A stretch of 53,524 bases of DNA from a virus. Its lineage: Duplodnaviria; Caudoviricetes. The translations under genes were made by a program, and so were the position numbers. Positions 11,317 to 53,524 of this stretch are shown here, one piece after another (positions within the stretch are counted from its first letter, which is position 1; the number at the start of each line of letters is the position of its first letter). The notes below the pieces were generated by a model, which worked only from the letters and a program-made list of their open reading frames with translations, ran no database searches and was not told the DNA's origin. The stretch spans positions 1 to 53,524 of the IMG/VR virus record IMGVR_UViG_3300027770_002684; one strand, given 5' to 3'.

Positions 11317-12263
11317 GGCATTAATAGGTCAACAAATTTGTGGTAGTCCATTAACCATTCACGTGTATAATCTCGATACTTGGGTAATAAAATATTTTTT
11401 CGAATCATATCACATAGTCCTGAGATTTTTTCTCCGCCGTGATACTTTTGTCTGCTTTTTAAATCAGGCCAATATTTATTATAAACTAGATATTTTGTGG
11501 ACCTACTGCTCATTTTATAAGGATTCTTATCTGTACAAACAAGTTTAATTTTTTCTTCCAACGCCATTGCTAAAGTTATTTCTGCGTTGTGCTGGAAAAA
11601 TCCCAATCCGCCTAGTATGTTATTCTGAATAGCAAATCTAAACCACGCAAGTATATATTCGTATTCAATATATTGCCATGTATATTTAGGAGCATTATAA
11701 TCAAGTAATCTCCATTTGGGATTAATATCCCGAACTACGTAAAAATCCCCGTTGCCTAATATTGGCATGCCGCCTTGGTCCCAAATATATTTTATCAATT
11801 TCATAGTGGGAAGCATTTGAGGATACACACATAATGATTGCTCGGCCATATACATTGCTTCGTTGCTCATCAACCATGTTTCTGTATCAATATCTAAATA
11901 TTCGTGACTAAAATTAAGTTGATGTTTCAATTGCTCTACATAGATAAGTTCGTGTTCATTAAACTGTTTTGCAAATCTAGTTGTAGCTGTATGAAAAGTA
12001 GTTCCTATTTCTGCAAATGCCTTAACAACAACATGACTATCTAGCCCACCGCTTAACAATATAACAGGAGTCCGACCTAGATTACTAGCAGAGTTTGATA
12101 AATCTTGAGCAGTCTTGATACATTCGTCTTTAAATGAAGTGGGTACGTAATTTGCTTTTGAATAACTGCAAGAAAAAACTTTAGTTGGGCTGGCATCTTG
12201 TAAATTGAATACTCCAGAATTGTATCCAAATGTAAAATGATTATCTAATGTATAAGGTAACAT
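11313..12263 (-). CDS. PP-loop adenine-nucleotide alpha-hydrolase (Asn synthetase C-domain-like)
   Basis: ILLSGGLDS; ILGNGD. Confidence 0.8.
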   Translation of the reverse strand: MLPYTLDNHFTFGYNSGVFNLQDASPTKVFSCSYSKANYVPTSFKDECIKTAQDLSNSASNLGRTPVILLSGGLDSHVVVKAFAEIGTTFHTATTRFAKQFNEHELIYVEQLKHQLNFSHEYLDIDTETWLMSNEAMYMAEQSLCVYPQMLPTMKLIKYIWDQGGMPILGNGDFYVVRDINPKWRLLDYNAPKYTWQYIEYEYILAWFRFAIQNNILGGLGFFQHNAEITLAMALEEKIKLVCTDKNPYKMSSRSTKYLVYNKYWPDLKSRQKYHGGEKISGLCDMIRKNILLPKYRDYTREWLMDYHKFVDLLMP

Positions 12264-43981: not shown

Positions 43982-44010
43982 TTGACATTGACGGGTTTTT
44001 CCTGTATAAT
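43982..44010 (+). promoter_or_regulatory. Consensus sigma70 promoter
   Basis: TTGACA-17-TATAAT, followed by ACACAC leader. Confidence 0.88.
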
Positions 44011-44042
44011 TATACTCATACACACACACAGAAAGGTTAGTT

Positions 44043-44465
44043 ATGCCAGGAATAGCACTAGAAGGTAGCATTACCTCTTGGGAAAATCGCCCACAATGCC
44101 AAATAGCAGGATGTTGTAATCCTGCTATGTACAACTATCAATATGCTGATGGAGATTGGAAATGGCGAGTAAGACACGGTAAAATTATTTGTGGGGCCCA
44201 TCAGCGTAAAAGTTGGCATCCTACGCTTAAACATCGTAAAGATTACTGCGAAAATGTTTCTGGTTTTTTAGGGTTTAAATGTACTACTAACTTGGTCTGG
44301 AATGGTATGTTAGATGTAGATCATAAAAACGGCAATCCTGGTGATAATAGACCTGCTAATCTACAAACTCTGTGTAAGTGCTGTCATATGTATAAAACAC
44401 ATAAGAACAAAGACTACCTAACAGATGGGCGTAAGACTTTGGGATTTACTAATAGTTACAAGTAA
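44043..44465 (+). CDS. HNH endonuclease
   Basis: LDVDHKNGN..DN...NLQTLC.CCH..KT. Confidence 0.85.
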   Translation: MPGIALEGSITSWENRPQCQIAGCCNPAMYNYQYADGDWKWRVRHGKIICGAHQRKSWHPTLKHRKDYCENVSGFLGFKCTTNLVWNGMLDVDHKNGNPGDNRPANLQTLCKCCHMYKTHKNKDYLTDGRKTLGFTNSYK

Positions 44466-44550
44466 ATACCCCGCTGTAGCACTATACAGATATAGTCTTA
44501 CAGCGTATATACAAATACCCCGCTATACAGGCCACACCAAATACCCCGCT
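44464..44550. repeat. Three direct repeats AAATACCCCGCT
   Basis: Copies start at 44464, 44513, 44539. Confidence 0.8.
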
Positions 44551-45185
44551 ATAGCACCCTTGCCCAGAACCCATAATACACTACATCGAAGTCGATCCTA
44601 CGTAGTGAAAGGTTGAGACCAAAGAATATCCTGACTACAGTGTGATTTCCTTTGGTCGAATGGTAGACCATTTTACGATAGCCTCTCATCCCCACCGTGC
44701 TCCAATCTAAATCCACTATAGATCTAACAGAAATCTACGGCGAAAAAGGATCAATCTACGGTGGATTCGACGCATTTTGGAGCGTTTTTCCACCGTGAAT
44801 CCCAGATTTCTGACCCAAAACTGCCCCAAAATAGTATCACATTACTCAGTGTAGAGTAACATATTCTACTGTGTAATCACTATGCATGTTGTAGATCTAC
44901 TACAGTGTGAGTTGTCCATAGTTGGGATCTGTGTTATACTATGCGTATATACACCGAGACTTGTCTATGAGTAGTGTATATGTAAACCGTAAGCAGCAGG
45001 ATAGACATACAGATTTGATTAGGGGCCGGAAGCCTGGGCGATCGATTGGGTATGTTGAGTCTGATTGTAGATCTTCGTTACTGTTGCTGAACTCGCGACC
45101 AGCCCTTCCGGTGGTTGAGGACCCTCTTTGTAGATGAACAGGCGAGATGGGCGGCGATACTGGGAAACGCAGAGATCGCTGACTG

Positions 45186-45225
45186 AGATAACCCTATAGT
45201 TGAGTAAGCTATAGGGTTATCTTTT
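45186..45225 (+). terminator. 14-bp hairpin with short T run
   Basis: AGATAACCCTATAG-9 nt-CTATAGGGTTATCT-TTT. Confidence 0.6.
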
Positions 45226-45297
45226 GAGTAGATACAATCTATATTATGTTAACCGGGGTCGGAGTGCCGGCTGTGTGGCGGTTATACAACGGATTCA

Positions 45298-45336
45298 CTT
45301 TACATTGGCTTTACATTGGCTTTACATATCTTTACA
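45298..45336. repeat. Tandem CTTTACA(TTGG) x4
   Basis: Units at 45298, 45309, 45320, 45330. Confidence 0.85.
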
Positions 45337-45346
45337 AAGAAATGAG

Positions 45347-45375
45347 TTGACAAAATGGTAAAACCATTGTATAAT
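45347..45375 (+). promoter_or_regulatory. Repeated early promoter
   Basis: TTGACA-17-TATAAT; spacer AATGGT-AAA-ACCATT. Confidence 0.9.
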
Positions 45376-45402
45376 TGACACTTACACACACTGGAGCACA
45401 CT

Positions 45403-45645
45403 ATGCTGACAAACGAAAGCGAAATTATAAACAATGCTACTATTACACACGACTACGAAGCAGAAGCCATGCAGTCGTTTGAAGCCACGGGCGACGACAT
45501 GATGGACGAACTAACTGAGCGATTTGAGAGTGAGTTTACCAACTTTGATCTTGCAGATGATGTTGGGGGGCTGGTGCTCTACAGACGAGCAGGCGTTTTA
45601 GTAGCGTTCTACGACTACGAGCAGTTCCACGGCGCTGTATTGTAA
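45403..45645 (+). CDS. Acidic early protein
   Basis: GGAG SD; D/E-rich. Confidence 0.8.
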   Translation: MLTNESEIINNATITHDYEAEAMQSFEATGDDMMDELTERFESEFTNFDLADDVGGLVLYRRAGVLVAFYDYEQFHGAVL

Positions 45646-45682
45646 AGTGCCAGAGTGTTGTAGAAATACAGCACTCTTCAGG

Positions 45683-45711
45683 TTGACAAAGTGGTAAAAC
45701 CATTGTATAAT
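45683..45711 (+). promoter_or_regulatory. Repeated early promoter
   Basis: TTGACA-17-TATAAT; upstream hairpin GAGTGTTGTA-GAAA-TACAGCACTC. Confidence 0.9.
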
Positions 45712-45717
45712 ACACAC

Positions 45718-46068
45718 ATGAACAAAGAAACAGTCACCCGCAAGAAACGTGTAGATCGCAATCACATCATCTACGAACTCGTAGTCAATGGGTTGAACTA
45801 CATAGGTGTCACTGCTAAGACTGAGACTACTGTGCAGAAGTCAGTTCGTGTTCGTGCTAACAAGCATTTCTACCGTGCTAAGACTGAGAACAAAGACTGG
45901 GCCCTGTGCGTGGCTCTACGTGAGTTGTCAGACAAGAGCGAGATAGAGATACGCATACACGAGATCATCCGTGGCAAGGCTGCTGCACATCGGCGGGAAG
46001 TTGAGATCCGTCGTGCTATTAACCCTGCGCTGAATACGGACATTCGCGGCGACTTGACAGCGGGCTAA
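45718..46068 (+). CDS. GIY-YIG-like nuclease-domain protein, probably leaderless
   Basis: HIIYEL...NYIGVT...R...H...E...LN; ATG 6 nt after the -10 box with no SD. Confidence 0.65.
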   Translation: MNKETVTRKKRVDRNHIIYELVVNGLNYIGVTAKTETTVQKSVRVRANKHFYRAKTENKDWALCVALRELSDKSEIEIRIHEIIRGKAAAHRREVEIRRAINPALNTDIRGDLTAG

Positions 46069-46082
46069 GAACCTGCTATAAT
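46054..46082 (+). promoter_or_regulatory. Repeated early promoter
   Basis: TTGACA-17-TATAAT plus ACACACTTACACACTAAGGAGC. Confidence 0.9.
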
Positions 46083-46108
46083 ACACACTTACACACTAAG
46101 GAGCTACC

Positions 46109-46336
46109 ATGTTTGATTCGTTTACTCGTATACGCCCGGCCACTTGCCGCCTGATGGACATGATGGATGCAGGTGAGATCGATACCCGTATAGTAGCAGA
46201 GATGGCCCTGATGTGGCTGTCGGAGAGTTCCGTTGCCGAGATGATGCAGGCCAACGACATCTTGCAAGAAGAAGCGGCGGATGACGGCCAGCCCGATGAA
46301 GCACAAGAGTGGGAATCTTTTGATCCTGACTGCTGA
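46109..46336 (+). CDS. Acidic early protein
   Basis: AAGGAG SD; tail DGQPDEAQEWESFDPDC. Confidence 0.8.
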   Translation: MFDSFTRIRPATCRLMDMMDAGEIDTRIVAEMALMWLSESSVAEMMQANDILQEEAADDGQPDEAQEWESFDPDC

Positions 46337-46342
46337 AAACGG

Positions 46343-46371
46343 TTGACACATTGGTAAAACCATTGTATAAT
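46343..46371 (+). promoter_or_regulatory. Repeated early promoter
   Basis: Identical to 51883-51911. Confidence 0.9.
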
Positions 46372-46398
46372 TGACACTTACACACTAAGGAGCACGAC

Positions 46399-46638
46399 AT
46401 GCAAGTATTTCAACTAATCGAGCGTTTGATGGACTTGGACCCTAACGCCGAAGTCCACTTGAGTTATAACTATGGCGACCACTGGAGCACCCAAGTGGCC
46501 CCTACTGTGGACACGGTAGACGAGGGACTGGTGAAGTATAGCGACTATCACCGCATGGACACGTTGATGGATGAGGACGAGATGATCGAAGATGAAGGCG
46601 ACTTCGAAGGTACTCGCCGTGTGGTAGTCTTAGGTTGA
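46399..46638 (+). CDS. Acidic early protein
   Basis: SD; stop TGA lies inside the next TTGACA. Confidence 0.8.
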   Translation: MQVFQLIERLMDLDPNAEVHLSYNYGDHWSTQVAPTVDTVDEGLVKYSDYHRMDTLMDEDEMIEDEGDFEGTRRVVVLG

Positions 46639-46663
46639 CAAGACTGGTAAGACCAGTTATAAT
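46635..46663 (+). promoter_or_regulatory. Repeated early promoter
   Basis: Spacer ACTGGT-AAG-ACCAGT. Confidence 0.9.
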
Positions 46664-46690
46664 ATACACTTACACACAAAGGAGCTAGAG

Positions 46691-46978
46691 ATGCTTTCAA
46701 TCGCAGATATCAACACCGCTATCATCAGCCAAACATGGACCAACGATCAACTGACATCTATGATTGATGCTGTCAAGTTCGCTCGTTCGCGTTTAGCGAA
46801 ACAGACCATGCGTCAACTGCACATCGGTGATCCTGTGGTGTTCAATGCCAAGGACGGACGTGCTGTCAACGGCATGGTGACTAAGATTGCTATCAAGTTC
46901 GTCACAGTGAAGACCAACATTGGCTCTTGGCGAGTGCCTGCTAGCATGTTGCGTATCGTAGAACGCGAACTGGCATAA
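46691..46978 (+). CDS. Early protein, SH3/KOW-like C-terminus
   Basis: IGDPVVF...G.VTKI..K.V.V.....WRVP. Confidence 0.75.
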   Translation: MLSIADINTAIISQTWTNDQLTSMIDAVKFARSRLAKQTMRQLHIGDPVVFNAKDGRAVNGMVTKIAIKFVTVKTNIGSWRVPASMLRIVERELA

Positions 46979-46983
46979 AGAGG

Positions 46984-47012
46984 TTGACACGGGAGCGATC
47001 CCGTGTTATAAT
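46984..47012 (+). promoter_or_regulatory. Repeated early promoter
   Basis: Hairpin ACACGGGA-GCGA-TCCCGTGT. Confidence 0.9.
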
Positions 47013-47038
47013 ACACGCTTACACACACTGGAGCACCT

Positions 47039-47416
47039 ATGCAATATTACGATGAACTTGCGCAGTACGAGCGCGAAGGCTTTTCAATCATTGTGGACAA
47101 GACCTATGAAGACATGCATCCCCGGGACACGTTCGACGACAGCTGCCACAACATTGACGAGATCTGTGAGAAGATTGACAACGGGACCTACGAATGGTTT
47201 ATGTTGCGAGTACGTGTACTCGTCGAAGGGCTCGAACTATCACGCGAGCATGTGGGCGGATGCCTATACTATGACGTCCGCGAAGTCCTTACTGACGGGA
47301 CTGCCGAAGACCTCATTGACAGTGCGATGACTGATGCCAAGAAGCAGGTCTATCGACTAAGCCGGGTGTTCGCTGGCCTAAGCGAGCAGGTGGATCGGGA
47401 GGGTGCCTGTGCTTGA
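47039..47416 (+). CDS. Hypothetical early protein
   Basis: GGAG SD; acidic. Confidence 0.8.
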   Translation: MQYYDELAQYEREGFSIIVDKTYEDMHPRDTFDDSCHNIDEICEKIDNGTYEWFMLRVRVLVEGLELSREHVGGCLYYDVREVLTDGTAEDLIDSAMTDAKKQVYRLSRVFAGLSEQVDREGACA

Positions 47417-47633
47417 TAACGTTTTAAAATGGAGTGGCATGGCATTGGTCATCGCCGGTGCCCTATGCACTAGTTTGCGCATTGACCCTTTGAACATCTT
47501 GTTGCTCAATGCGGGTGCTCTTGTCTACATGATATGGGCATTGCGAATTCAAGAAATGAACTTGGTGATCGTCAATGCAGTGCTTTTGGCTATCTATGCA
47601 GTAGGATTAATGCAAGTGCCAAAACCGTTGTAG
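47403..47633 (+). CDS. Small membrane protein (about 3 TM)
   Basis: Three hydrophobic stretches; start may be GTG 47409. Confidence 0.7.
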   Translation: MPVLDNVLKWSGMALVIAGALCTSLRIDPLNILLLNAGALVYMIWALRIQEMNLVIVNAVLLAIYAVGLMQVPKPL

Positions 47634-47652
47634 AAATACAACAACAAAGAGG

Positions 47653-47681
47653 TTGACATATTGGTAAAACCGTTGTATAAT
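47653..47681 (+). promoter_or_regulatory. Repeated early promoter
   Basis: TTGACA-17-TATAAT; upstream GTTGTA-GAAA-TACAAC. Confidence 0.9.
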
Positions 47682-47707
47682 TAACGCTTACACACTAAGG
47701 AGCACAG

Positions 47708-47992
47708 ATGTTCACTACAGACAACCAAACCGCACTCAAAGACGAACTGAACCTCATGTTCAAAGAGCAGGGTGCCGCGTTCACCGCAGGCTACTCCAAC
47801 ATGATGGTGCAGGAGATGCTGATGTTCTTGCCCAAACGCAAGCAGAAAGAGTTCATCCAGCAGGTTGCTGCCTTCAACGGTCGCCAACTAGTCACTGTGA
47901 AGAACTGCTTGACTGGTCAGGAAGTTGAGATCCGCCGTGAAGATGTGGGCACCTGCAACGATCCGAGTCGCGAACTGTTCCATACAATGTGA
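47708..47992 (+). CDS. Hypothetical early protein
   Basis: SD; C-terminal VKNCLTG.EVEI.......DPS.E.FH.M. Confidence 0.8.
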   Translation: MFTTDNQTALKDELNLMFKEQGAAFTAGYSNMMVQEMLMFLPKRKQKEFIQQVAAFNGRQLVTVKNCLTGQEVEIRREDVGTCNDPSRELFHTM

Positions 47993-47994
47993 GG

Positions 47995-48023
47995 TTGACA
48001 GAGGAGCAATCCTCTGTTATAAT
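47995..48023 (+). promoter_or_regulatory. Repeated early promoter, no SD/ORF downstream
   Basis: Hairpin ACAGAGGA-GCAA-TCCTCTGT. Confidence 0.9.
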
Positions 48024-48029
48024 ACACGC

Positions 48030-48143
48030 ATAGACAGATTTGTTTAGTAAGTGCCTCTAGACTGAAGTCGGTCGAGATCTATGAATGCTCAGGCAGATGT
48101 ATAGGAGTGAAGGCAAGCAGATAAGAGCACTTACTAAACAAAG
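48030..48143 (+). ncRNA. Candidate small structured RNA
   Basis: Own promoter; perfect 16-bp closing stem 48039-48054/48127-48142; no SD-led ORF. Confidence 0.6.
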
Positions 48144-48146
48144 TGG

Positions 48147-48175
48147 TTGACAAGTTGGTAGAAGAGTGTTATAAT
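48147..48175 (+). promoter_or_regulatory. Repeated early promoter
   Basis: TTGACA-17-TATAAT-ACACGCATAG. Confidence 0.9.
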
Positions 48176-48181
48176 ACACGC

Positions 48182-48322
48182 ATAGGGAAACAAGTTTAGG
48201 GTTACTCCAGAACGCAACGCAGGACGCATTAAATAGACCTTGAAGGTCAGCCCGCAAGGGATGCATGTCAAAACGCTGAGCAGGGAGGATTAAATCAGTC
48301 TGTGACTGAGCCCATCTTTTTT
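48182..48322 (+). ncRNA. Candidate structured RNA or 5' leader
   Basis: Hairpins GACCT-TGA-AGGTC, CCC-GCAA-GGG, TCAGTC-TGT-GACTGA, then T6. Confidence 0.5.
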
Positions 48323-48333
48323 AGGAGCATAGT

Positions 48334-48492
48334 ATGGGACATTGGGAATTTGGAGAGTTCCGCATTGGACGCTTATTCCACTGCAACGGTAACGACTACA
48401 TCAAACAATCAACACGCACTGCACGGTTGCTCAGCAACGGACGCATCTTCTACTTCGGTAAGAACGAAGTCATTCACGCTATCGCATACTAA
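48334..48492 (+). CDS. Small early protein (52 aa), not in ORF track
   Basis: AGGAG SD; MGHWEFGEFRIGRLFHCNGNDYIK. Confidence 0.75.
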   Translation: MGHWEFGEFRIGRLFHCNGNDYIKQSTRTARLLSNGRIFYFGKNEVIHAIAY

Positions 48493-48502
48493 GGAGCACA
48501 CA

Positions 48503-48664
48503 ATGAAAGAGCAACTACTGGCCTTGGCCTACGAGCAGGAAGATGATGTGTTTGGCTCCAGTGAGCGTGATGAGTTCGATTGTTTGATCGCCCTGATCGA
48601 AGATGGCACCATCAACACCTTTGAAGAACTTGCCCGTTACGGAGTTGAACGATCCGGTGAATAA
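48503..48664 (+). CDS. Small acidic protein (53 aa)
   Basis: AAGGAG SD before MKEQLL. Confidence 0.75.
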   Translation: MKEQLLALAYEQEDDVFGSSERDEFDCLIALIEDGTINTFEELARYGVERSGE

Positions 48665-48673
48665 CCCTGCAGG

Positions 48674-48702
48674 TTGACAGGTCATTCAAACGGTGCTATA
48701 AT
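48674..48702 (+). promoter_or_regulatory. Repeated early promoter
   Basis: TTGACA-17-TATAAT plus conserved leader. Confidence 0.9.
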
Positions 48703-48729
48703 ACACACATACACACTAAGGAGCACAAG

Positions 48730-48831
48730 ATGAAGTTCACAGCAGAACAACTGGCCGCATACATGAAGGGCATGACCATTGCACAGGCAGCAGCCATGTG
48801 GCAAGTGTTGGTTGACAAAGGCATTGTTTGA
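48730..48831 (+). CDS. 33-aa peptide, not in ORF track
   Basis: Own promoter and SD; MKFTAEQLAAYMKGMTIAQAAAMWQVLVDKGIV. Confidence 0.7.
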   Translation: MKFTAEQLAAYMKGMTIAQAAAMWQVLVDKGIV

Positions 48832-48840
48832 AGTTATAAT
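48812..48840 (+). promoter_or_regulatory. Repeated early promoter
   Basis: TTGACA-17-TATAAT plus conserved leader. Confidence 0.9.
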
Positions 48841-48866
48841 ACACACATACACACTAAGGAGCACTC

Positions 48867-49109
48867 ATGTTTACACTGGCAAATGTTCAAAAAGTATATA
48901 CCGGCCGTTTGGGATGTATGTGCGGATGCAGGGGACGATACAGTTATGCCCAGGGCTGTGATGAAGGCTACGACGATCAAGTTAATGAGCGGAGTGTCAA
49001 ACTCATCTTCAACAAGGTAATGAACCACCCTGATCGCAAAATGGACGGCAATGATATTGCTTATGTTATGACTGACACACGCAATCTCGTTGTGTATTTT
49101 AAAGATTGA
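48867..49109 (+). CDS. Hypothetical early protein
   Basis: SD; YTGR.GCMCGCRG.Y motif. Confidence 0.8.
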   Translation: MFTLANVQKVYTGRLGCMCGCRGRYSYAQGCDEGYDDQVNERSVKLIFNKVMNHPDRKMDGNDIAYVMTDTRNLVVYFKD

Positions 49110-49111
49110 GG

Positions 49112-49140
49112 TTGACAGGTCTGGTAAAACCTGTTACAAT
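49112..49140 (+). promoter_or_regulatory. Repeated early promoter
   Basis: TTGACA-17-TACAAT; ACAGGT...ACCTGT. Confidence 0.88.
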
Positions 49141-49169
49141 ATACGCTTACACACTAAGGAGCACAGCAA

Positions 49170-49646
49170 ATGGGAACACGCAGTCGAATTGGAGTCATGC
49201 ACGGAGACAAGTGCAAAAGCATCTACTGTCATTGGGATGGCTATCTGTCGCACAATGGCAAGATCCTGCAAGAGCACTACGATAGTGCCAAGGCCAATCA
49301 TCTCGTGGCAATGGGCGACATGAGCAGCCTGGATAACCATATCGGTGAGAAGCATCCCTTCAGCGGCTACTCGGGCGAAGAAGATAAAGCCTTGTATGAA
49401 CAAGCCCGCGAGAAGCATTGGTCTACATTCTACGCTCGCGATCGCGGTGAGACAGGTGTAGAGTTCAAAGTAGCACAAGACTTCGCAGAGTTCCTGGAGC
49501 AATGCGATAGCTGCGGTGCTGAATACTACTACATCATGAAGGACGGTGTTTGGTATTGTGGTACCACATACGAGAACACACACCCCTTGAGCAAGACTTT
49601 AACGGTGTTGACTGAAGCATTGGCAAACGAAAAGGAAACTGTATGA
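49170..49646 (+). CDS. Phage early protein
   Basis: MGTRSRIG...SIYCHWDGY....G..L..HY; EYYY. Confidence 0.85.
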   Translation: MGTRSRIGVMHGDKCKSIYCHWDGYLSHNGKILQEHYDSAKANHLVAMGDMSSLDNHIGEKHPFSGYSGEEDKALYEQAREKHWSTFYARDRGETGVEFKVAQDFAEFLEQCDSCGAEYYYIMKDGVWYCGTTYENTHPLSKTLTVLTEALANEKETV

Positions 49647-49816
49647 GCAAGATGAGTGATATGGCTTACGACATTGAGCAACTCTACATTGAAGGCTATA
49701 GTGCCCGAACGATCGCGATCATGTTGGAGTGCCCGATCGATCTGGTCTACAATTGGATCGATGGCAACGGTGTGGCAGATATCCCACAAGGGGAGGATGA
49801 ACATTCGGCAAATTAA
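49643..49816 (+). CDS. Small HTH-like protein (57 aa), not in ORF track
   Basis: ATGA overlap; LYIEGYSARTIAIMLECPIDLVYNWI. Confidence 0.7.
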   Translation: MSKMSDMAYDIEQLYIEGYSARTIAIMLECPIDLVYNWIDGNGVADIPQGEDEHSAN

Positions 49817-49828
49817 TCCAGAAAACGG

Positions 49829-49857
49829 TTGACAACGAACCTAATCCGTTGTATAAT
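49829..49857 (+). promoter_or_regulatory. Repeated early promoter
   Basis: TTGACA-17-TATAAT; ACAACG...CGTTGT. Confidence 0.88.
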
Positions 49858-49914
49858 TAAGGTATGGAAAGTAATTATGCAATCCATATTTCACACACAC
49901 AGAAGAGGTATTTT

Positions 49915-50331
49915 ATGACTGACAAGACTTTTAAATTCGCAGGTGTTTCTACTCGTAATGGTGTTTGCAAGGCTCGCTTTGCCAATGACCAAATGCGTGT
50001 CAAGGTGCTGGCCAAGACCGGCAGCAAGGACATCGATCTGATTGAACTCAAAGAGCCCATGACCAAAGCGGCTGCTATCGCGTTCCTGATCTTCATCAAC
50101 TTCGACAACGGCAATGCCACTGTGCGGGCTGCTCTTGAGGAAGGCTTGGAGAAGCGTACCGTAGTTGCCCGGGCACCTAAAGCTGTTAAAGCCAAAGCGG
50201 CTCCTAAGGCCAAGGCTGTGAAGTCCAAGCCCACTATGGACGCTATCAAGGCCAAGGTTGCGGCTGCTACCAAGCCTAAGAAGGCAGACATCGTTGCCCA
50301 GATGGCAGACATGGAAGAAGCACCCTACTGA
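49915..50331 (+). CDS. Protein with Lys/Ala/Pro-rich histone-like tail
   Basis: GAGG SD before MTDKTF; APKAVKAKAAPKAKAVKSKP. Confidence 0.8.
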   Translation: MTDKTFKFAGVSTRNGVCKARFANDQMRVKVLAKTGSKDIDLIELKEPMTKAAAIAFLIFINFDNGNATVRAALEEGLEKRTVVARAPKAVKAKAAPKAKAVKSKPTMDAIKAKVAAATKPKKADIVAQMADMEEAPY

Positions 50332-50406
50332 TAGCGGGGTATTGGGGCCCAGTGTGCCCCATTTAGTAAAATACATTGGGTAGTGTGTTTTACCAAAGGA
50401 AACAAT

Positions 50407-50652
50407 ATGAGTAAACTGGCATATCTGGGTAGACCGTGGACTGTGTTCGAAGCAAAGAACAAGCAGCATCGAGCATGGTTCGCAGAGTTCCAACACAAGC
50501 GGACATGGAGCAATTGTCCTGTGAGATTTGTAGTAGCAGATGATCAAGGTGATCTGGTTACTATGATCCAGCAACGCTTGATTGAATACTACACAACACG
50601 AGAATTCGGTAAAGTTGAAGACCAAAAGTACTTGACCTTGGTCAAGCGATAG
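50407..50652 (+). CDS. Hypothetical protein
   Basis: AAGGA SD before MSKLAY; RPW.VF...N..HR...W..CPVRF. Confidence 0.78.
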   Translation: MSKLAYLGRPWTVFEAKNKQHRAWFAEFQHKRTWSNCPVRFVVADDQGDLVTMIQQRLIEYYTTREFGKVEDQKYLTLVKR

Positions 50653-50700
50653 TGTAATATTAGTGTAACTGTGTGAACAGTATAACATTAAGGAAAACAA

Positions 50701-50976
50701 ATGACAACATATAATATCAACCAAGGGACCAAGACCCACAAGCTATTCACCGCATTGAAGTCGGGTGAGGCAGTCAGTGCCAGCCAAGCAGAGAAGCGTT
50801 TCGGTATCAAGAACATCAGTGCCGAAGTTAGCCGTATCCGTGCAGCAGGTTTCGCAGTGTACGGTAACACCCGTGTCGCTGGCAACCATGTTGAAGTGAA
50901 AGAATATGTAATCGGACAGCCATCACGCAAGTTGATCGCAGCCGGTTACAAGGCAATGGCATTGGGCCTTGTCTAA
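50701..50976 (+). CDS. Winged-HTH DNA-binding protein
   Basis: L..ALKSGE.VSA.QA..RFGI.N.SA.VS.IR..GF.VY. Confidence 0.75.
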   Translation: MTTYNINQGTKTHKLFTALKSGEAVSASQAEKRFGIKNISAEVSRIRAAGFAVYGNTRVAGNHVEVKEYVIGQPSRKLIAAGYKAMALGLV

Positions 50977-51118
50977 AGAACGCTCCAAAGTCTGAAGTCG
51001 CGTATCAGACACAAGTCCCAGGGGGTAGTGTCCCTGGGCAAACCCCCGAACCCCGTATGCCGCAAAGTATATGGGGTTCATCTATTGTGGTCAACCTCTC
51101 TCCGAAAGACCCGCCAGG

Positions 51119-51147
51119 TTGACAGGGTATTCAGATCCTGCTATAAT
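51119..51147 (+). promoter_or_regulatory. Repeated early promoter
   Basis: CAGGGT...ATCCTG spacer. Confidence 0.9.
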
Positions 51148-51171
51148 ACACACATAGACAGCAAGGAGCAC

Positions 51172-51372
51172 ATGATGATCAAAGTAGCAAAGATGACAGA
51201 CGGCAAGGTAGTCGAGGTCGTTCGGGTTGCGGACACTGTAGGCTTCAGCACCGAGCGGGGGTGGGTCATGGTCTGCTTCGACTTTGAGAAGATCAGTCGC
51301 AAGCGTGAGCAATTCAAGTGGGTGCCGGCCACTACTCGATTTGAGTGGGTTAGAGAATACACTTTCGGTTGA
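51172..51372 (+). CDS. Hypothetical early protein
   Basis: SD before MMIKVAK; stop inside next TTGACA. Confidence 0.78.
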   Translation: MMIKVAKMTDGKVVEVVRVADTVGFSTERGWVMVCFDFEKISRKREQFKWVPATTRFEWVREYTFG

Positions 51373-51397
51373 CAGGGTCTTAGGATCCTGCTATAAT
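51369..51397 (+). promoter_or_regulatory. Repeated early promoter
   Basis: CAGGGTC-TTAG-GATCCTG. Confidence 0.9.
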
Positions 51398-51424
51398 ACA
51401 CACATGAACACAAAGGAGCACAAA

Positions 51425-51634
51425 ATGACAGCGATTACAGTAGCAGAGATGATAGAGGCATTGAGCCAGTTGCCAGGGGACGCAGAGTTGGTAGTGACCG
51501 AAAGCGGTTATTACTCTTATGGCGAGTTTGCCAACATCATGTTGCCAGAAGCCTACACCGTAGAAGGTGTGGACAATGATGCAGATGTGGGCAAGGTAGT
51601 CTACCGCATTGGTCACTCACACCAATCTTACTAA
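51425..51634 (+). CDS. Hypothetical early protein
   Basis: SD; TVAEMIEALSQLP.DAE resembles the N-terminus of 46399-46638. Confidence 0.78.
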   Translation: MTAITVAEMIEALSQLPGDAELVVTESGYYSYGEFANIMLPEAYTVEGVDNDADVGKVVYRIGHSHQSY

Positions 51635-51641
51635 GGAGCAT

Positions 51642-51875
51642 ATGATGCAAGCAGAAGCAACCCGGTCCGCATATTACGACACACGCCACGGTGGACCATT
51701 CGATCGTGGCAGTGCCGACTTCTACTATGGTCGTTCGTTCAATCCTCACTACTTCGTCGGTGACACCTACTCCACTCCTAAGATCGAGTTGGCCCAGATG
51801 ACTGCGGCAGAGATCGCAGGTTACACCGCAGGCTACCGCTATGGTGAAGAACTGGGCGATCGTAAAGAGTGGTAG
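51642..51875 (+). CDS. Hypothetical early protein
   Basis: SD; RHGGPFDRGSAD.YYGR. Confidence 0.8.
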   Translation: MMQAEATRSAYYDTRHGGPFDRGSADFYYGRSFNPHYFVGDTYSTPKIELAQMTAAEIAGYTAGYRYGEELGDRKEW

Positions 51876-51882
51876 AAAGAGG

Positions 51883-51911
51883 TTGACACATTGGTAAAAC
51901 CATTGTATAAT
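51883..51911 (+). promoter_or_regulatory. Repeated early promoter
   Basis: Identical to 46343-46371. Confidence 0.9.
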
Positions 51912-51938
51912 TAACACTTACACACACTGGAGCACACG

Positions 51939-52205
51939 ATGAAAGCACTACAGACATACATCGACAACAAGAACCGTTGGAACGCTATCTTCAAAGGTGA
52001 GCAGTTCGAAATCCAAAGTGCCAAGGGTCGACAGCGAGTCGCTGACAGCCTGGACGCAGACCTGAGCCCAGAGAACTTGACCTGTGATGGCGAACTGTCG
52101 CGTCAAGAGATACGGATGCGTTACGATTTCCTGCAACAGGCGGCTGTGCAGTTGACAGCATTGGATCCGCAGGTTAAGATGTATGAGTTCTACACTGGAG
52201 AATAA
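51939..52205 (+). CDS. Hypothetical early protein
   Basis: SD; LSPENLTCDGEL motif. Confidence 0.82.
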   Translation: MKALQTYIDNKNRWNAIFKGEQFEIQSAKGRQRVADSLDADLSPENLTCDGELSRQEIRMRYDFLQQAAVQLTALDPQVKMYEFYTGE

Positions 52206-52206
52206 G

Positions 52207-52356
52207 ATGGACAGAGACGAACTGCTGGCAAAGGTCTATGAACAGATGGAACGCGATATCCGCAACGAAGATTTAACAGCCATTGAAGAACTGTTGAGCA
52301 CAGTGTCTGATGCGGCTTTACTTGGTTTTTTACCCGAAGGAGATTTCAATGCCTAA
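52207..52356 (+). CDS. Small acidic protein (49 aa), not in ORF track
   Basis: GGAG SD; MDRDELLAKVYEQMERD. Confidence 0.72.
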   Translation: MDRDELLAKVYEQMERDIRNEDLTAIEELLSTVSDAALLGFLPEGDFNA

Positions 52357-52870
52357 TTGGTGCAATAACACGCTGAACATCCGCCACGAAGATCCTGCTA
52401 TGATTGAGCGGGCCCGTAAGGCTTTTACCGACGGCAGGTTCCTGGAGGAGTTCATTCCGTTCCCTAATGGTGAGTGGGATTGGAACTTCTGTGTAGCCAA
52501 CTGGGGTACCAAGTGGGATATCGGTGGTGGGGATGGTCACACCGTAGAGCAAGATGCCAATGGTGTCGTGTTCAACTTCGACAGTGCCTGGGCACCACCC
52601 CTTGCTGCCTATGAGCGGTTGATGGGCATGGGCTTTGAGATCCTGGCCTACTACTTTGAACCCGGCATGGCGTTCGCAGGCAAGTGGGAAGATGGTTGCG
52701 ATGACTACTACGAATATGGTGGCATGACCAGTGAGCAGATCGCTGATGAGTTGCCCGATGACCTGGATGAGACCTTTGACATCAGCGGCCAGGTTGCTGA
52801 GTGGGAAGCCGAGGACGAGGAGAACATTGAGATCGACCTTGATGGAGGTGCGAGTTCCACTAACGAATAA
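52349..52870 (+). CDS. DUF1281/YubB-like protein
   Basis: MPNWC.N, NWGTKWD, FDSAWAPP, Y.EPGM.FAG. Confidence 0.8.
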   Translation: MPNWCNNTLNIRHEDPAMIERARKAFTDGRFLEEFIPFPNGEWDWNFCVANWGTKWDIGGGDGHTVEQDANGVVFNFDSAWAPPLAAYERLMGMGFEILAYYFEPGMAFAGKWEDGCDDYYEYGGMTSEQIADELPDDLDETFDISGQVAEWEAEDEENIEIDLDGGASSTNE

Positions 52871-52901
52871 CCCTACACACTGTAGGGTCTTTACAGCACA
52901 C

Positions 52902-52930
52902 TTGACAGGTGTGCTGTTCTGCGTTATAAT
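52902..52930 (+). promoter_or_regulatory. Repeated early promoter with -35 box at hairpin tip
   Basis: ACAGCACACTT-GAC-AGGTGTGCTGT; TATAAT at 17-nt spacing. Confidence 0.88.
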
Positions 52931-52955
52931 ACACACATAAACACTAAGGAACACG

Positions 52956-53123
52956 ATGAAGAAAATATGTGCTAACGGAATGACACGCTGGGCAATGATG
53001 TACCAAATTAAGTTGCAATGCGACACTAACAGTGCTTGCTACAAAATGACAGACGAAGAACTTGTTGCAACTTATAATGCGATTTTTAATATTGCACAAA
53101 AAGACTTGACAACGGCAGACTGA
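52956..53123 (+). CDS. Small early protein (55 aa), not in ORF track
   Basis: AAGGA SD; MKKICANGMTRWAMM. Confidence 0.7.
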   Translation: MKKICANGMTRWAMMYQIKLQCDTNSACYKMTDEELVATYNAIFNIAQKDLTTAD

Positions 53124-53134
53124 ACTGCTATAAT
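53106..53134 (+). promoter_or_regulatory. Repeated early promoter
   Basis: TTGACA-17-TATAAT plus leader. Confidence 0.9.
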
Positions 53135-53163
53135 ACACACTTAAACACTAAACGGAGCACAAC

Positions 53164-53523
53164 ATGCAAACAGCACTGACAACACAATTTGCTAAAGTTA
53201 GCGACAAACTGACACTGGAACACACTGGTGTTGAAGACGACGACACACTGCACACGGAATACAAGTGCAACGTAGAAGTGCAACTGGCAGGTGACAGCAT
53301 ATGGGACTGCGAACTGCAAGCGGTTACTATTACGGGCGTACACATTAGCGAAACGTTTGACGAAGACGACGGGGACGTTTACGCACACATTGGGGTGACT
53401 TACGAAGTAGACGGCGAAGACGGTGCTGAAGTAGAAGGCAGCTGGCGGCTGTACACAGACAACGGCTTTAGCGATGCTGTGAGCGAGTTGCTGGGAACAG
53501 ATGTAGACTTTACAGAGCAAGGT
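53164..53523 (+). CDS. Acidic early protein, 3'-truncated
   Basis: GGAG SD; MQTALTTQ...LYTDNGF...VDFTEQG, open to the window end. Confidence 0.8.
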   Translation, partial: MQTALTTQFAKVSDKLTLEHTGVEDDDTLHTEYKCNVEVQLAGDSIWDCELQAVTITGVHISETFDEDDGDVYAHIGVTYEVDGEDGAEVEGSWRLYTDNGFSDAVSELLGTDVDFTEQG

Positions 53524-53524
53524 A

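What the first reader, a model, noticed from the sequence alone, without database searches (positions are those of the whole stretch)
52920..53524. Coding strand almost free of pyrimidine-C dinucleotides (no TC, one CC in 605 nt)
Seen: reading the + strand from 52920 to the end, I find no TC and one CC (53003-53004). C, T, CT, TT, GA and GG are all common, so the bias is strand-specific; random expectation would be tens of each. It covers two genes, a promoter and leaders. Neither protein has Pro and Ser uses AGY. It begins abruptly at a promoter boundary, and the gene just upstream is rich in TC/CC. Inference, three alternatives: (a) these mRNAs are immune to a UC/CC-directed RNase, from a host toxin or the phage's own shut-off enzyme; (b) escape from, or a scar of, an ssDNA-acting enzyme (APOBEC3 enzymes prefer TC/CC, DarT modifies TNTC); (c) broad anti-restriction, since losing YC on one strand removes every palindrome containing GA/TC or GG/CC (GATC, CCGG, GGCC, GANTC, CCNGG) from early-injected DNA.
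Basis: partly seen in the sequence, partly recalled or inferred. Interest (0 to 1): 0.9.

Follow-up and report, generated by a model that had tools for sequence, protein, structure and literature searches.

The report
Phage early messages without pyrimidine-C

Summary
Window 52920-53524 has 0 TC and 1 CC where about 24 and 25 are expected, while GA and GG are normal. It is real and selected. A 98%-complete 353-kb relative has a single such tract, 921 nt against a next-longest gap of 159 nt. Thirty-one distinct orthologs (median protein identity 47%) have zero YC despite at least 610 nucleotide changes. Synonymous resampling never reaches zero (0 of 5000).

The tract matches a transcription unit. 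It starts at the first promoter's -10 and ends in the paired stem of a terminator, and internal cassette remnants are purged of YC.

New here:
- C content is unchanged, so this is a dinucleotide rule, not purine bias.
- The same protein domain is coded with normal YC and prolines when fused in the late head/terminase module.
- The last 60 nt before terminators are also purged.
- Six cultured phages lack such tracts.

Restriction avoidance is rejected. The scan has reported this phenomenon before on other DNA.

The parts
52871..52892 (+). Stem-loop terminator of the upstream gene (CCCTAC...GTAGGG, then TC and TTT). This is the last YC-bearing element before the tract and the stem-loop half of a promoter-plus-stem-loop early cassette.
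   Evidence: Sequence read. The same hairpin type closes the islands of relatives.
52893..52930 (+). Promoter P1: -35 TTGACA at 52902-52907, 17-nt spacer, -10 TATAAT at 52925-52930. A 9-bp inverted repeat (52893-52901 / 52909-52917) puts the -35 in a loop. The last TC (52918-52919) sits in the spacer, which is not transcribed from P1.
   Evidence: This is a consensus match only; the start site (about 52937) is inferred.
52920..53524 (+). YC-free tract (0 TC, 1 CC at 53003-53004), cut by the end of the contig. In the 94% relative L007 it ends about 60 nt further on, in the 3' arm of a terminator stem.
52956..53123 (+). Gene A, 55 aa, no Pro, 1 YC. SD AAGGAA at 52946-52951. No family match. Its only ortholog among the loci is in L007 (2 YC).
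53106..53134 (+). Promoter P2 (TTGACA-17-TATAAT) inside the tract. It is YC-free, as expected if it is read through from P1.
53164..53524 (+). Gene B, the first 120 of about 136 codons (contig end). SD GGAG at 53154-53157. This is the core cargo of the YC-free islands. It is an acidic, beta-rich member of an undescribed domain family with motifs LAGDSIWD, W.IYTDSGF and FTEQGMQ.DG.ASME.

Best explanation
SHOWN: natural selection keeps the transcription unit carrying gene B, with a variable set of co-transcribed small early genes, free of 5'-YC-3' wherever the RNA would be single-stranded. This is done by recoding, not by lowering C content. Each of Rho's six primary RNA-binding clefts binds one 5'-YC dinucleotide. 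An RNA with no single-stranded YC offers Rho no loading site. These messages, made by unmodified host RNA polymerase from consensus sigma-70 promoters at the start of infection, would then be completed even when transcription outruns translation. Other phages encode the same domain, with ordinary YC, inside large proteins of the late head/packaging module, from which it could be supplied ready-made with the virion. I hold the Rho identity at about 0.4. The general claim of RNA-level evasion of a YC reader I hold at about 0.8.
For: Specificity: both TC and CC are banned, while AC, GC, CT and TT are not (o/e 1.69, 1.62, 1.00, 1.47 over 11.5 kb of pooled islands). That is exactly the 5'-YC (Y = U or C) specificity of Rho's primary binding clefts (passages in PMC12360218). 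PMC13323073 states that E. coli Rho recognises up to six CC or UC dinucleotides. Transcript limits: the tract starts at P1's -10. The untranscribed P1 spacer keeps a TC, while the read-through P2 does not. The tract ends in terminator stems where every YC is paired. Inside islands, hairpin remnants are purged (CCCTAC to cACTAC, GGGTCttt to GGGTTatt), and an internal promoter spacer reads aaaaACtg where the next promoter outside reads aaaaCCtg. Selection: 31 distinct CDS have 0 YC over at least 610 changes, where at least 63-141 YC-creating changes are expected. Resampling gives 0 of 5000. There is one tract per 353-kb genome. Expression mode, not protein constraint: fused late-module paralogs carry 4-6 YC per 100 nt and 5-41 Pro. 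Plausible hosts have Rho: the nearest cultured terminases are from phages of Pseudomonas, Sinorhizobium, Agrobacterium and enterobacteria, and the Rho RNA-binding family rings in 9 of 14 control genomes. Precedents: synonymous recoding switches Rho termination on and off in B. subtilis, and Rho is described as a barrier to phages (PMC13323073, section 7 and passages). T4 prereplicative expression depends on the host rho allele (PMC12152347, passages).
Against: Rho recognition is cooperative and degenerate, so one isolated YC should cost almost nothing. Yet 31 distinct CDS sit at exactly zero instead of near a tolerance threshold. In 14 of 14 loci where a terminator directly follows gene B, the last 60 nt of the CDS still have 0 YC against 29 expected. 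Rho loaded there could no longer affect the gene. Cassette shuffling could blur this test. C content (0.19-0.20 against 0.21-0.22) and C-G skew equal the flanks, whereas published Rho avoidance works through C/G and purine content. Within the window, the 13 other cassettes with the same consensus promoter and a following ORF of at least 33 aa carry 3.7-11.6 YC per 100 nt. Short ORFs with strong ribosome-binding sites are poor Rho targets. Some lineages relax the ban: L082 and L084 are standalone in early-type cassettes with 5.3-5.7 YC per 100 nt, and six others hold 2-8 YC. That is easier to explain with a patchily distributed reader than with a near-universal one. P4 psu, a known anti-Rho gene, is not YC-depleted (9.6 per 100 nt). 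Gene B resembles no known Rho inhibitor. The host is unknown.
Confidence: 0.4

Rival explanations
1. Single-hit RNA reader. An endoribonuclease, or an RNA-modifying enzyme, attacks single-stranded RNA at YC. It could be a host defence nuclease such as a HEPN-type collateral RNase, or the phage's own shut-off enzyme. Messages with any exposed YC are destroyed. Gene B and its partners must be made while that enzyme is active, and gene B may be its inhibitor, so their messages carry no site.
For: The ban is all-or-none and independent of position, as expected when one site is enough. There are 0 YC in 31 distinct CDS, in leaders, in intergenic remnants and in 3' UTRs, and in the last 60 nt before terminators (14 of 14 loci, 29 expected). 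YC is tolerated only in paired stems. There is a sharp split between purged and unpurged cassettes with the same promoter. Some lineages relax the ban, as expected for a patchy defence. C content is kept and only the context is changed. C-directed HEPN RNases exist: SyCsx1 is strictly C-specific on ssRNA, and SisCsx1 prefers 5'-C-C-3' (passages in PMC9676260). The 353-kb relative carries 32 tRNA genes and a tmRNA. That fits heavy RNA damage in infected cells, but this point is weak because Rho-truncated messages also lack stop codons. Motif-free messages escaping MazF (ACA-less mRNAs) are a known principle (recalled, not read here).
Against: My searches found no enzyme with exactly YC specificity (UC and CC, but not AC, GC, CU or UU). 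The phage records hold no recognisable PemK/MazF or HEPN gene (0 of 4 records each). The RegB search was uninformative because its control did not ring either. A nuclease dense enough to force a total ban would also hit host and phage RNAs needed for translation. The host is unknown.
Confidence: 0.37
2. DNA-level escape. An enzyme acting on single-stranded DNA at YC (an APOBEC/DddA-like deaminase, a dC-specific ssDNA nuclease, or DarT-like ADP-ribosylation) attacks the non-template strand exposed in this very heavily transcribed unit.
For: The non-template strand has the same limits as the transcript, so the anatomy does not by itself exclude this reading. A preference for pyrimidine at -1 is typical of cytosine deaminases (recalled).
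Against: Other cassettes with the same consensus promoters are not purged. Damage anywhere else in the 353-kb genome would be just as harmful. The terminator stems that close the islands keep YC, although YC-free stems are clearly possible and are used inside islands. That fits protection by RNA pairing, not exposure in a DNA bubble. It is not a mutational scar: the ORFs are conserved, AC and GC are enriched, and CT is at 1.00.
Confidence: 0.07
3. Structure or translation tuning. Without YC an RNA cannot pair with GA/GG steps, including the GGAG of its own ribosome-binding site, so the messages stay open and are translated maximally.
For: Island RNA folds somewhat less stably: -30 to -34 against -34 to -40 kcal/mol per 150 nt in 4 loci.
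Against: The difference is small, partly reflects lower GC, and is absent in one of the four comparisons (L025 upstream). YC-free stems (GCACAC/GTGTGC) are kept inside islands. Nothing in this model requires a total ban over 0.4-2 kb or the loss of every proline.
Confidence: 0.05
4. Broad anti-restriction by removing palindromes that contain GA/TC or GG/CC.
For: Such palindromes are necessarily absent from the tract (this follows).
Against: The tract is about 0.3% of the genome, and the rest has normal YC on both strands. The bias is strand-specific and limited to the transcript. In relatives the tract is internal to 280-353 kb contigs.
Confidence: 0.01

Closest known systems
Rho utilisation (rut) sites and the 5'-YC-specific primary binding clefts of Rho (review PMC12360218; prediction model PMC6144790; passages read)
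   Same: Exactly the same dinucleotide definition (pyrimidine, then C), read on single-stranded nascent RNA.
   Different: Known biology concerns the presence and spacing of YC dimers in C>G-rich stretches. A natural transcript with a complete YC ban at normal C content is not described in what I read.
Rho avoidance by coding-strand purine bias (Dierksheide et al., Nat Microbiol 2026, PMC13323073; abstract, section 7 and passages read)
   Same: Sequence composition of genes is shaped to escape Rho. Synonymous recoding switches termination. Phages are named as facing this barrier.
   Different: That effect is genome-wide, graded and compositional (excess C, T-richness). Here there is one unit per 353-kb genome, the ban is absolute and dinucleotide-specific, and purine content rises only from 0.55 to 0.60 with unchanged C-G skew.
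Cleavage-site-free messages that escape sequence-specific mRNA interferases
   Same: Total absence of a short motif makes a message immune while other RNAs are destroyed.
   Different: That case is best known from an engineered system with a three-letter motif and a known enzyme. Here it is natural, the motif is two letters, it forces the loss of all prolines, and no cognate enzyme is known.
C-directed HEPN RNases of type III CRISPR systems (SyCsx1, SisCsx1; PMC9676260, passages read)
   Same: They are ssRNA-specific and cytosine-directed; CC preference is reported for SisCsx1.
   Different: No reported preference for UC together with CC while sparing AC and GC. No link to these phages or their unknown hosts.
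PeSL (promoter-early stem-loop) cassettes of T4-type phages (Arbiol et al. 2010, PMC2839356; abstract and outline only)
   Same: Strong sigma-70-like promoter joined to a stem-loop terminator, flanking small ORFan early genes. The window has 21 near-consensus promoters between 43.9 and 53.1 kb.
   Different: PeSLs explain the modular architecture, not the YC ban. RB49, where PeSLs were defined, has no YC-free tract (longest gaps 133 and 127 nt).
P4 Psu, a capsid decoration protein that also inhibits Rho (PMC11718236, passages read)
   Same: It is a precedent for a virion-associated late protein that acts on Rho. This parallels the late head-module forms of the gene B domain.
   Different: No sequence or fold similarity to gene B. 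psu has normal YC. An anti-Rho activity of gene B is only an inference.

Membership tests
Rho-blind (rut-free) transcript | No single-stranded 5'-YC-3' available to the Rho primary binding clefts | tested here: met
   0 TC and 1 CC in 605 nt. 0 YC in 11.5 kb of pooled islands. YC occurs only in terminator stems.
Rho-blind (rut-free) transcript | G over C and purine-rich composition beyond that of neighbouring genes | tested here: not met
   C-G skew is -0.11 to -0.12 in the islands and -0.08 to -0.12 in the flanks. C is 0.19-0.20 against 0.21-0.22. Purine is 0.60 against 0.55-0.56.
Rho-blind (rut-free) transcript | Expression depends on Rho activity when YC is restored | not testable with these tools
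   Needs in vitro termination or bicyclomycin assays.
Rho-blind (rut-free) transcript | The host encodes Rho | tested here: inconclusive
   The host is unknown. The nearest cultured relatives by terminase infect Proteobacteria.
Cleavage-site-free message escaping a sequence-specific RNase | Complete absence of the motif from the whole message, untranslated parts included | tested here: met
Cleavage-site-free message escaping a sequence-specific RNase | A cognate RNase of that specificity in the host or phage | tested here: inconclusive
   No PemK/MazF or HEPN domain in 4 phage records. The RegB control failed. The host is unknown. No YC-specific enzyme was found in the paper searches.
PeSL-type early cassette | Strong sigma-70-like promoter joined to a stem-loop terminator, flanking small early ORFs in a T4-type genome | tested here: met
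   TTGACA-17-TATAAT promoters and CCCTAC...GTAGGGTCTTT hairpins. T4-type terminase domains. Function is assumed from consensus only.
Restriction-site avoidance | Site depletion over the DNA exposed to restriction, on both strands | tested here: not met
   One strand, one tract of 0.4-2 kb per genome.
Deaminase hypermutation scar | YC converted to YT with damaged or drifting genes | tested here: not met
   CT o/e is 1.00, while AC and GC are 1.69 and 1.62. The protein is conserved, with 45 invariant columns.
Known Rho inhibitors (Psu, Rof/YaeO) as a family for gene B | Sequence or fold similarity | tested here: not met
   No Pfam or PHROG family. Best PDB Foldseek E is 0.37. Best BFVD match has TM 0.52 and is unnamed.

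The most novel reading that the evidence does not exclude
The gene B domain family is the antidote to the factor that reads YC, that is, a new family of anti-Rho or anti-RNase proteins. Phages would supply it at time zero in one of two ways. Either it is ready-made, as part of large proteins encoded in the late head/packaging module and carried in the virion, or it is made from the first transcripts, which must then be invisible to the very factor they neutralise. The YC-free island would be a natural self-protecting antidote message and would define a true immediate-early class in these giant phages.
Probability: 0.25. Interest if true: 0.9.

Novelty: new variant of a known kind. Interest (0 to 1): 0.8.

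Why it matters
A total two-letter ban that even removes proline from proteins is an unusually clean natural footprint of a single molecular reader acting on phage RNA in the first minutes of infection. They would give a sequence-level definition of immediate-early expression, show that Rho is a front-line barrier to giant phages, and provide a simple design rule for termination-proof transcripts. That inhibitor family has at least 214 clusters at 50% identity and no known relatives. Either way, the contrast between YC-free early copies and YC-normal late copies of one domain gives a direct, cheap experiment.

Tried and rejected
Function of gene B:
- No Pfam or PHROG family for gene B, gene A, four other island ORFs or 20 fused relatives. 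The only marginal sub-threshold hits were PipA, EGF_MSP1_1, UPF0184 and Sigma70_r3.
- The AlphaFold2 model (pLDDT 76.8, pTM 0.76) has no PDB match at E <= 0.001 and only unnamed BFVD matches.
- The ESM Atlas gave no usable hit.
- tblastn against 50,697 cultured phage records found nothing with either the window's gene B or a fused-type domain. blastn of the tract also found nothing.

Binding to Rho: complex prediction of RHO_ECOLI with the gene B alignment returned 'no answer' (score 0.00). This is neither for nor against binding.

Polarity test: gene B is not consistently at the 3' end of islands. The upstream YC-free stretch is longer in 19 of 29 loci, and those loci are related to each other. 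Inconclusive.

RNA evidence: one lake metatranscriptome (X1), stored as contigs, holds contigs 88-95% identical over parts of both the flanking genes and gene B. There are no read ends and no ranking is possible, and presence in an RNA library does not show transcription. Not used as evidence.

Cultured models: PA5oct, T4, RB49, GAP32, Phosso and Atu_ph07 have no tract beyond chance. The PA5oct gaps of 243-310 nt lack both YC and GR and were not looked at further. None of these genomes holds the gene B domain (one E = 0.03 hit in GAP32 was ignored).

Candidate readers encoded by the phage: RegB, PemK, HEPN and Rho_RNA_bind were all absent from 4 records. Only known families were tested.

Rows dropped:
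- L029 (6 YC) and L031 (broken copy, 6 YC) were left out of the 31-sequence test.
- L101 (an 11-aa fragment at a locus edge) counts among the 23 zero-YC rows but not among the 31.
- Identical CDS were collapsed (26 to 18; 80 to 68).

Prior publication: nothing was found in searches. Supplementary files were not consulted. The YC-motif tables of PMC6144790 and the supplementary methods of PMC13323073 might bear on how much a single YC matters.

Full report
WHAT IS THERE. The window is a complete IMG/VR virus record of 53,524 b, estimated 15% complete. Its last 605 bases (52920-53524) contain no TC and one CC (53003-53004) on the + strand, where base composition predicts 24.4 and 25.0. GA (52) and GG (31) are ordinary, and AC and GC are enriched. 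Across the window, 300-nt windows hold 30 +/- 9.9 YC. The longest YC-free gap is 522 nt, running to the contig end, against 117 nt for the next. The tract holds:
- promoter P1 (TTGACA 52902-52907, 17-nt spacer, TATAAT 52925-52930);
- gene A (52956-53123, 55 aa);
- promoter P2 (53106-53134);
- gene B (53164 onward, cut by the contig end after 120 codons).
The last TC (52918-52919) lies in the P1 spacer, upstream of the -10.

IT IS REAL AND SELECTED.
- Gene B found 26 related loci in viral contigs. The matched stretch has 0 YC in 25 of 26. Of 18 distinct CDS, 16 intact ones have 0 YC. The most divergent (L029) has 6, and a broken copy (L031) has 6.
- In a 353-kb, 98%-complete relative there is exactly one such tract, 921 nt, against a next-longest gap of 159 nt on either strand at a mean gap of 9-11 nt.
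- With the protein held fixed, genome codon usage gives 15-22 YC per gene B, and 0 of 5000 resamples reach zero. Shuffling codon order gives 5.6-9.8 YC.
- A profile scan added 80 loci, out of 207 relatives found. In all, 31 distinct YC-free CDS are known, with pairwise protein identity down to 36% (median 47%). They differ by at least 610 nucleotide changes and 261 synonymous codon switches. About 24% of point mutations would create a YC, so at least 63-141 such changes are expected, and none is retained. There are 0 prolines in 3,700 residues, and all 282 serines use AGY.
- Six cultured phages (T4, RB49, GAP32, Phosso, Atu_ph07, PA5oct) have longest gaps of 76-310 nt, near the 86-143 nt that chance gives. 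The uncultured relative has 921 nt against about 99 expected.

THE TRACT IS A TRANSCRIPT.
- In the 94% relative L007 the first YC after gene B is the CCCC of the descending arm of a terminator hairpin.
- In 14 loci gene B is followed within 7-44 nt by a predicted hairpin whose stem carries the first YCs, all of them paired.
- At the 5' side, the untranscribed spacer of the first promoter keeps a YC (window and L007). Promoters inside islands, which are read through from upstream, do not.
- Inside islands the usual cassette hairpin (gaCCCtac...gtagggTCttt) survives only as YC-purged remnants (cACTAC...tagggTTatt). An internal promoter spacer reads aaaaACtg where the next promoter outside reads aaaaCCtg.
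- The smallest islands are gene B alone (434 and 598 nt) and the largest reaches 2,041 nt. Neighbouring island genes hold 0-5 YC, against 8-12 per 100 nt outside.
- In the window, the 13 other cassettes with a near-consensus promoter and a following ORF of at least 33 aa carry 3.7-11.6 YC per 100 nt. The promoter type therefore does not explain the ban.

IT IS A DINUCLEOTIDE RULE. C content (0.19-0.20 against 0.21-0.22 in the flanks) and C-G skew are unchanged, and purines rise only from 0.55 to 0.60. The Cs have been moved behind purines: AC o/e 1.69, GC 1.62, TC and CC 0.00 in 11.5 kb of pooled islands. Predicted folding is only slightly weaker.

THE CARGO.
- Gene B has no Pfam or PHROG family, no PDB fold match and no Atlas neighbour. 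The model is mostly beta with one helix (pLDDT 76.8).
- A profile search finds 214 clusters at 50% identity, many of them inside proteins of 225-1,494 aa.
- Among 68 distinct CDS from the second scan, the small standalone forms are YC-free or YC-poor. There are 23 rows at zero (one of them an 11-aa fragment), six with 2-8 YC, and two exceptions with normal density, L082 and L084.
- All 35 forms of 200 aa or more have 3.3-6.2 YC per 100 nt and 6-41 prolines.
- The fused forms lie in the late structural module: tail tube, head closure, an internal-head-protein-like gene, the fused gene, large terminase, virion protein. The terminase is in the same short locus in 25 of 35, and at least one module gene in 29 of 35. 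For six (L087, L099, L100, L115, L120, L136) no such neighbour was found.
- No YC-free standalone form has such neighbours. The two short forms next to a terminase (L133, L134) are YC-normal.
- The protein therefore tolerates proline and TCN serine. The ban follows early-cassette expression.
- L082 and L084 do sit behind sigma-70-like promoters and are not purged, so some lineages lack the constraint.

WHO READS YC? The one documented reader of exactly 5'-YC on single-stranded RNA is the primary binding cleft of Rho (PMC12360218, passages). PMC13323073 states that Rho recognises up to six CC or UC dinucleotides. It shows that recoding switches Rho termination in B. subtilis, and it names phages among the elements facing this barrier (section 7 and passages). 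The nearest cultured relatives infect Proteobacteria.

Several results fit a single-hit reader better than a cooperative one:
- the counts sit at exactly zero;
- the last 60 nt before terminators are purged (14 of 14 loci, 29 YC expected);
- C content is unchanged;
- the split between purged and unpurged cassettes is sharp;
- some lineages relax the ban.

C-directed HEPN RNases exist (PMC9676260, passages). However, I found none with YC specificity, and no candidate in four phage records. I therefore give Rho about 0.40, a YC-directed RNase or RNA modifier about 0.37, a DNA-level reader about 0.07, structure or translation tuning about 0.05, restriction avoidance about 0.01, and leave the rest open. 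That selection acts on the transcript I hold at about 0.8.

COMPARISON AND NOVELTY. The principle of sequence avoidance to escape an RNA-reading factor is known, both from Rho-avoiding purine bias and from motif-free messages. An absolute, transcript-delimited dinucleotide ban in natural phage genes was not found in five literature searches. The points added here are:
- the late-module, YC-normal paralogs;
- the unchanged C content;
- the 3'-end test;
- the uniqueness of the tract in a near-complete genome;
- the negative survey of cultured phages and of P4 psu.

Noticed in passing
window 43982-53134: A dense array of 19 near-consensus sigma-70 promoters (at most one mismatch to TTGACA-17-TATAAT) on the + strand, most of them followed by a small ORF. 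Two more lie at 11673 and 36397. Several share the same spacer (..TGGTAAAACCATTG..).
   Followed up: partly
window 52893-52917: A perfect 9-bp inverted repeat (ACAGCACAC / GTGTGCTGT) brackets the -35 hexamer of P1, so the -35 would sit in a hairpin loop. The same arrangement (GCACAC..TTGACA..GTGTGC) recurs at promoters in relatives, and it is built without YC.
   Followed up: partly
window 45403-45645 and YC-free gaps 45365-45467, 48090-48206: Another early cassette gene (80 aa, no Pro) is partly YC-depleted (3.7 per 100 nt). Short YC-free stretches cover leaders elsewhere in the array.
   Followed up: no
window 52349-52870: The gene just upstream (173 aa from the internal ATG, very acidic C-terminus) matches phrog_20518 (E 1.6e-14, unknown function) and has normal YC.
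   Followed up: no
L033-L050 (353-kb relative G001): It carries 32 tRNA genes in two clusters and a tmRNA-like gene with a long tag. It also has an Hsp70, a ClpB/ClpA-like AAA+ protein and a CHASE2-nucleotide cyclase.
   Followed up: partly
L007, L010, L018, L021, L024, L032 and the window itself: Many contigs of relatives end within a few hundred bases of the island, as the window does. This may be because the repeated promoter cassettes break assemblies.
   Followed up: no
L077, L078, L087, L110, L124 and other fused forms: The large fused proteins are very acidic and carry a recurring short motif of the type D..R...LAG(I/V/M) near their ends and between segments. Some have Cys-rich CxC stretches. 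L115, L120 and L136 begin with a GRFQP..HH motif that looks like a nucleotidyltransferase (recalled resemblance, not tested).
   Followed up: no
L025 10973-11134: A second, separate YC-free ORF (53 aa) lies about 600 nt downstream of the main island, beyond YC-rich genes.
   Followed up: no
L031 9914-10261: A broken copy of gene B. The reading frame departs after about 75 residues, and the ORF as called holds 6 YC.
   Followed up: no
upstream of gene B in L009, L011, L013, L015, L016, L020, L025, L032: A fixed extended ribosome-binding site (AGGAGCGAA) precedes gene B in many relatives. The window has ACGGAGCAC instead.
   Followed up: no
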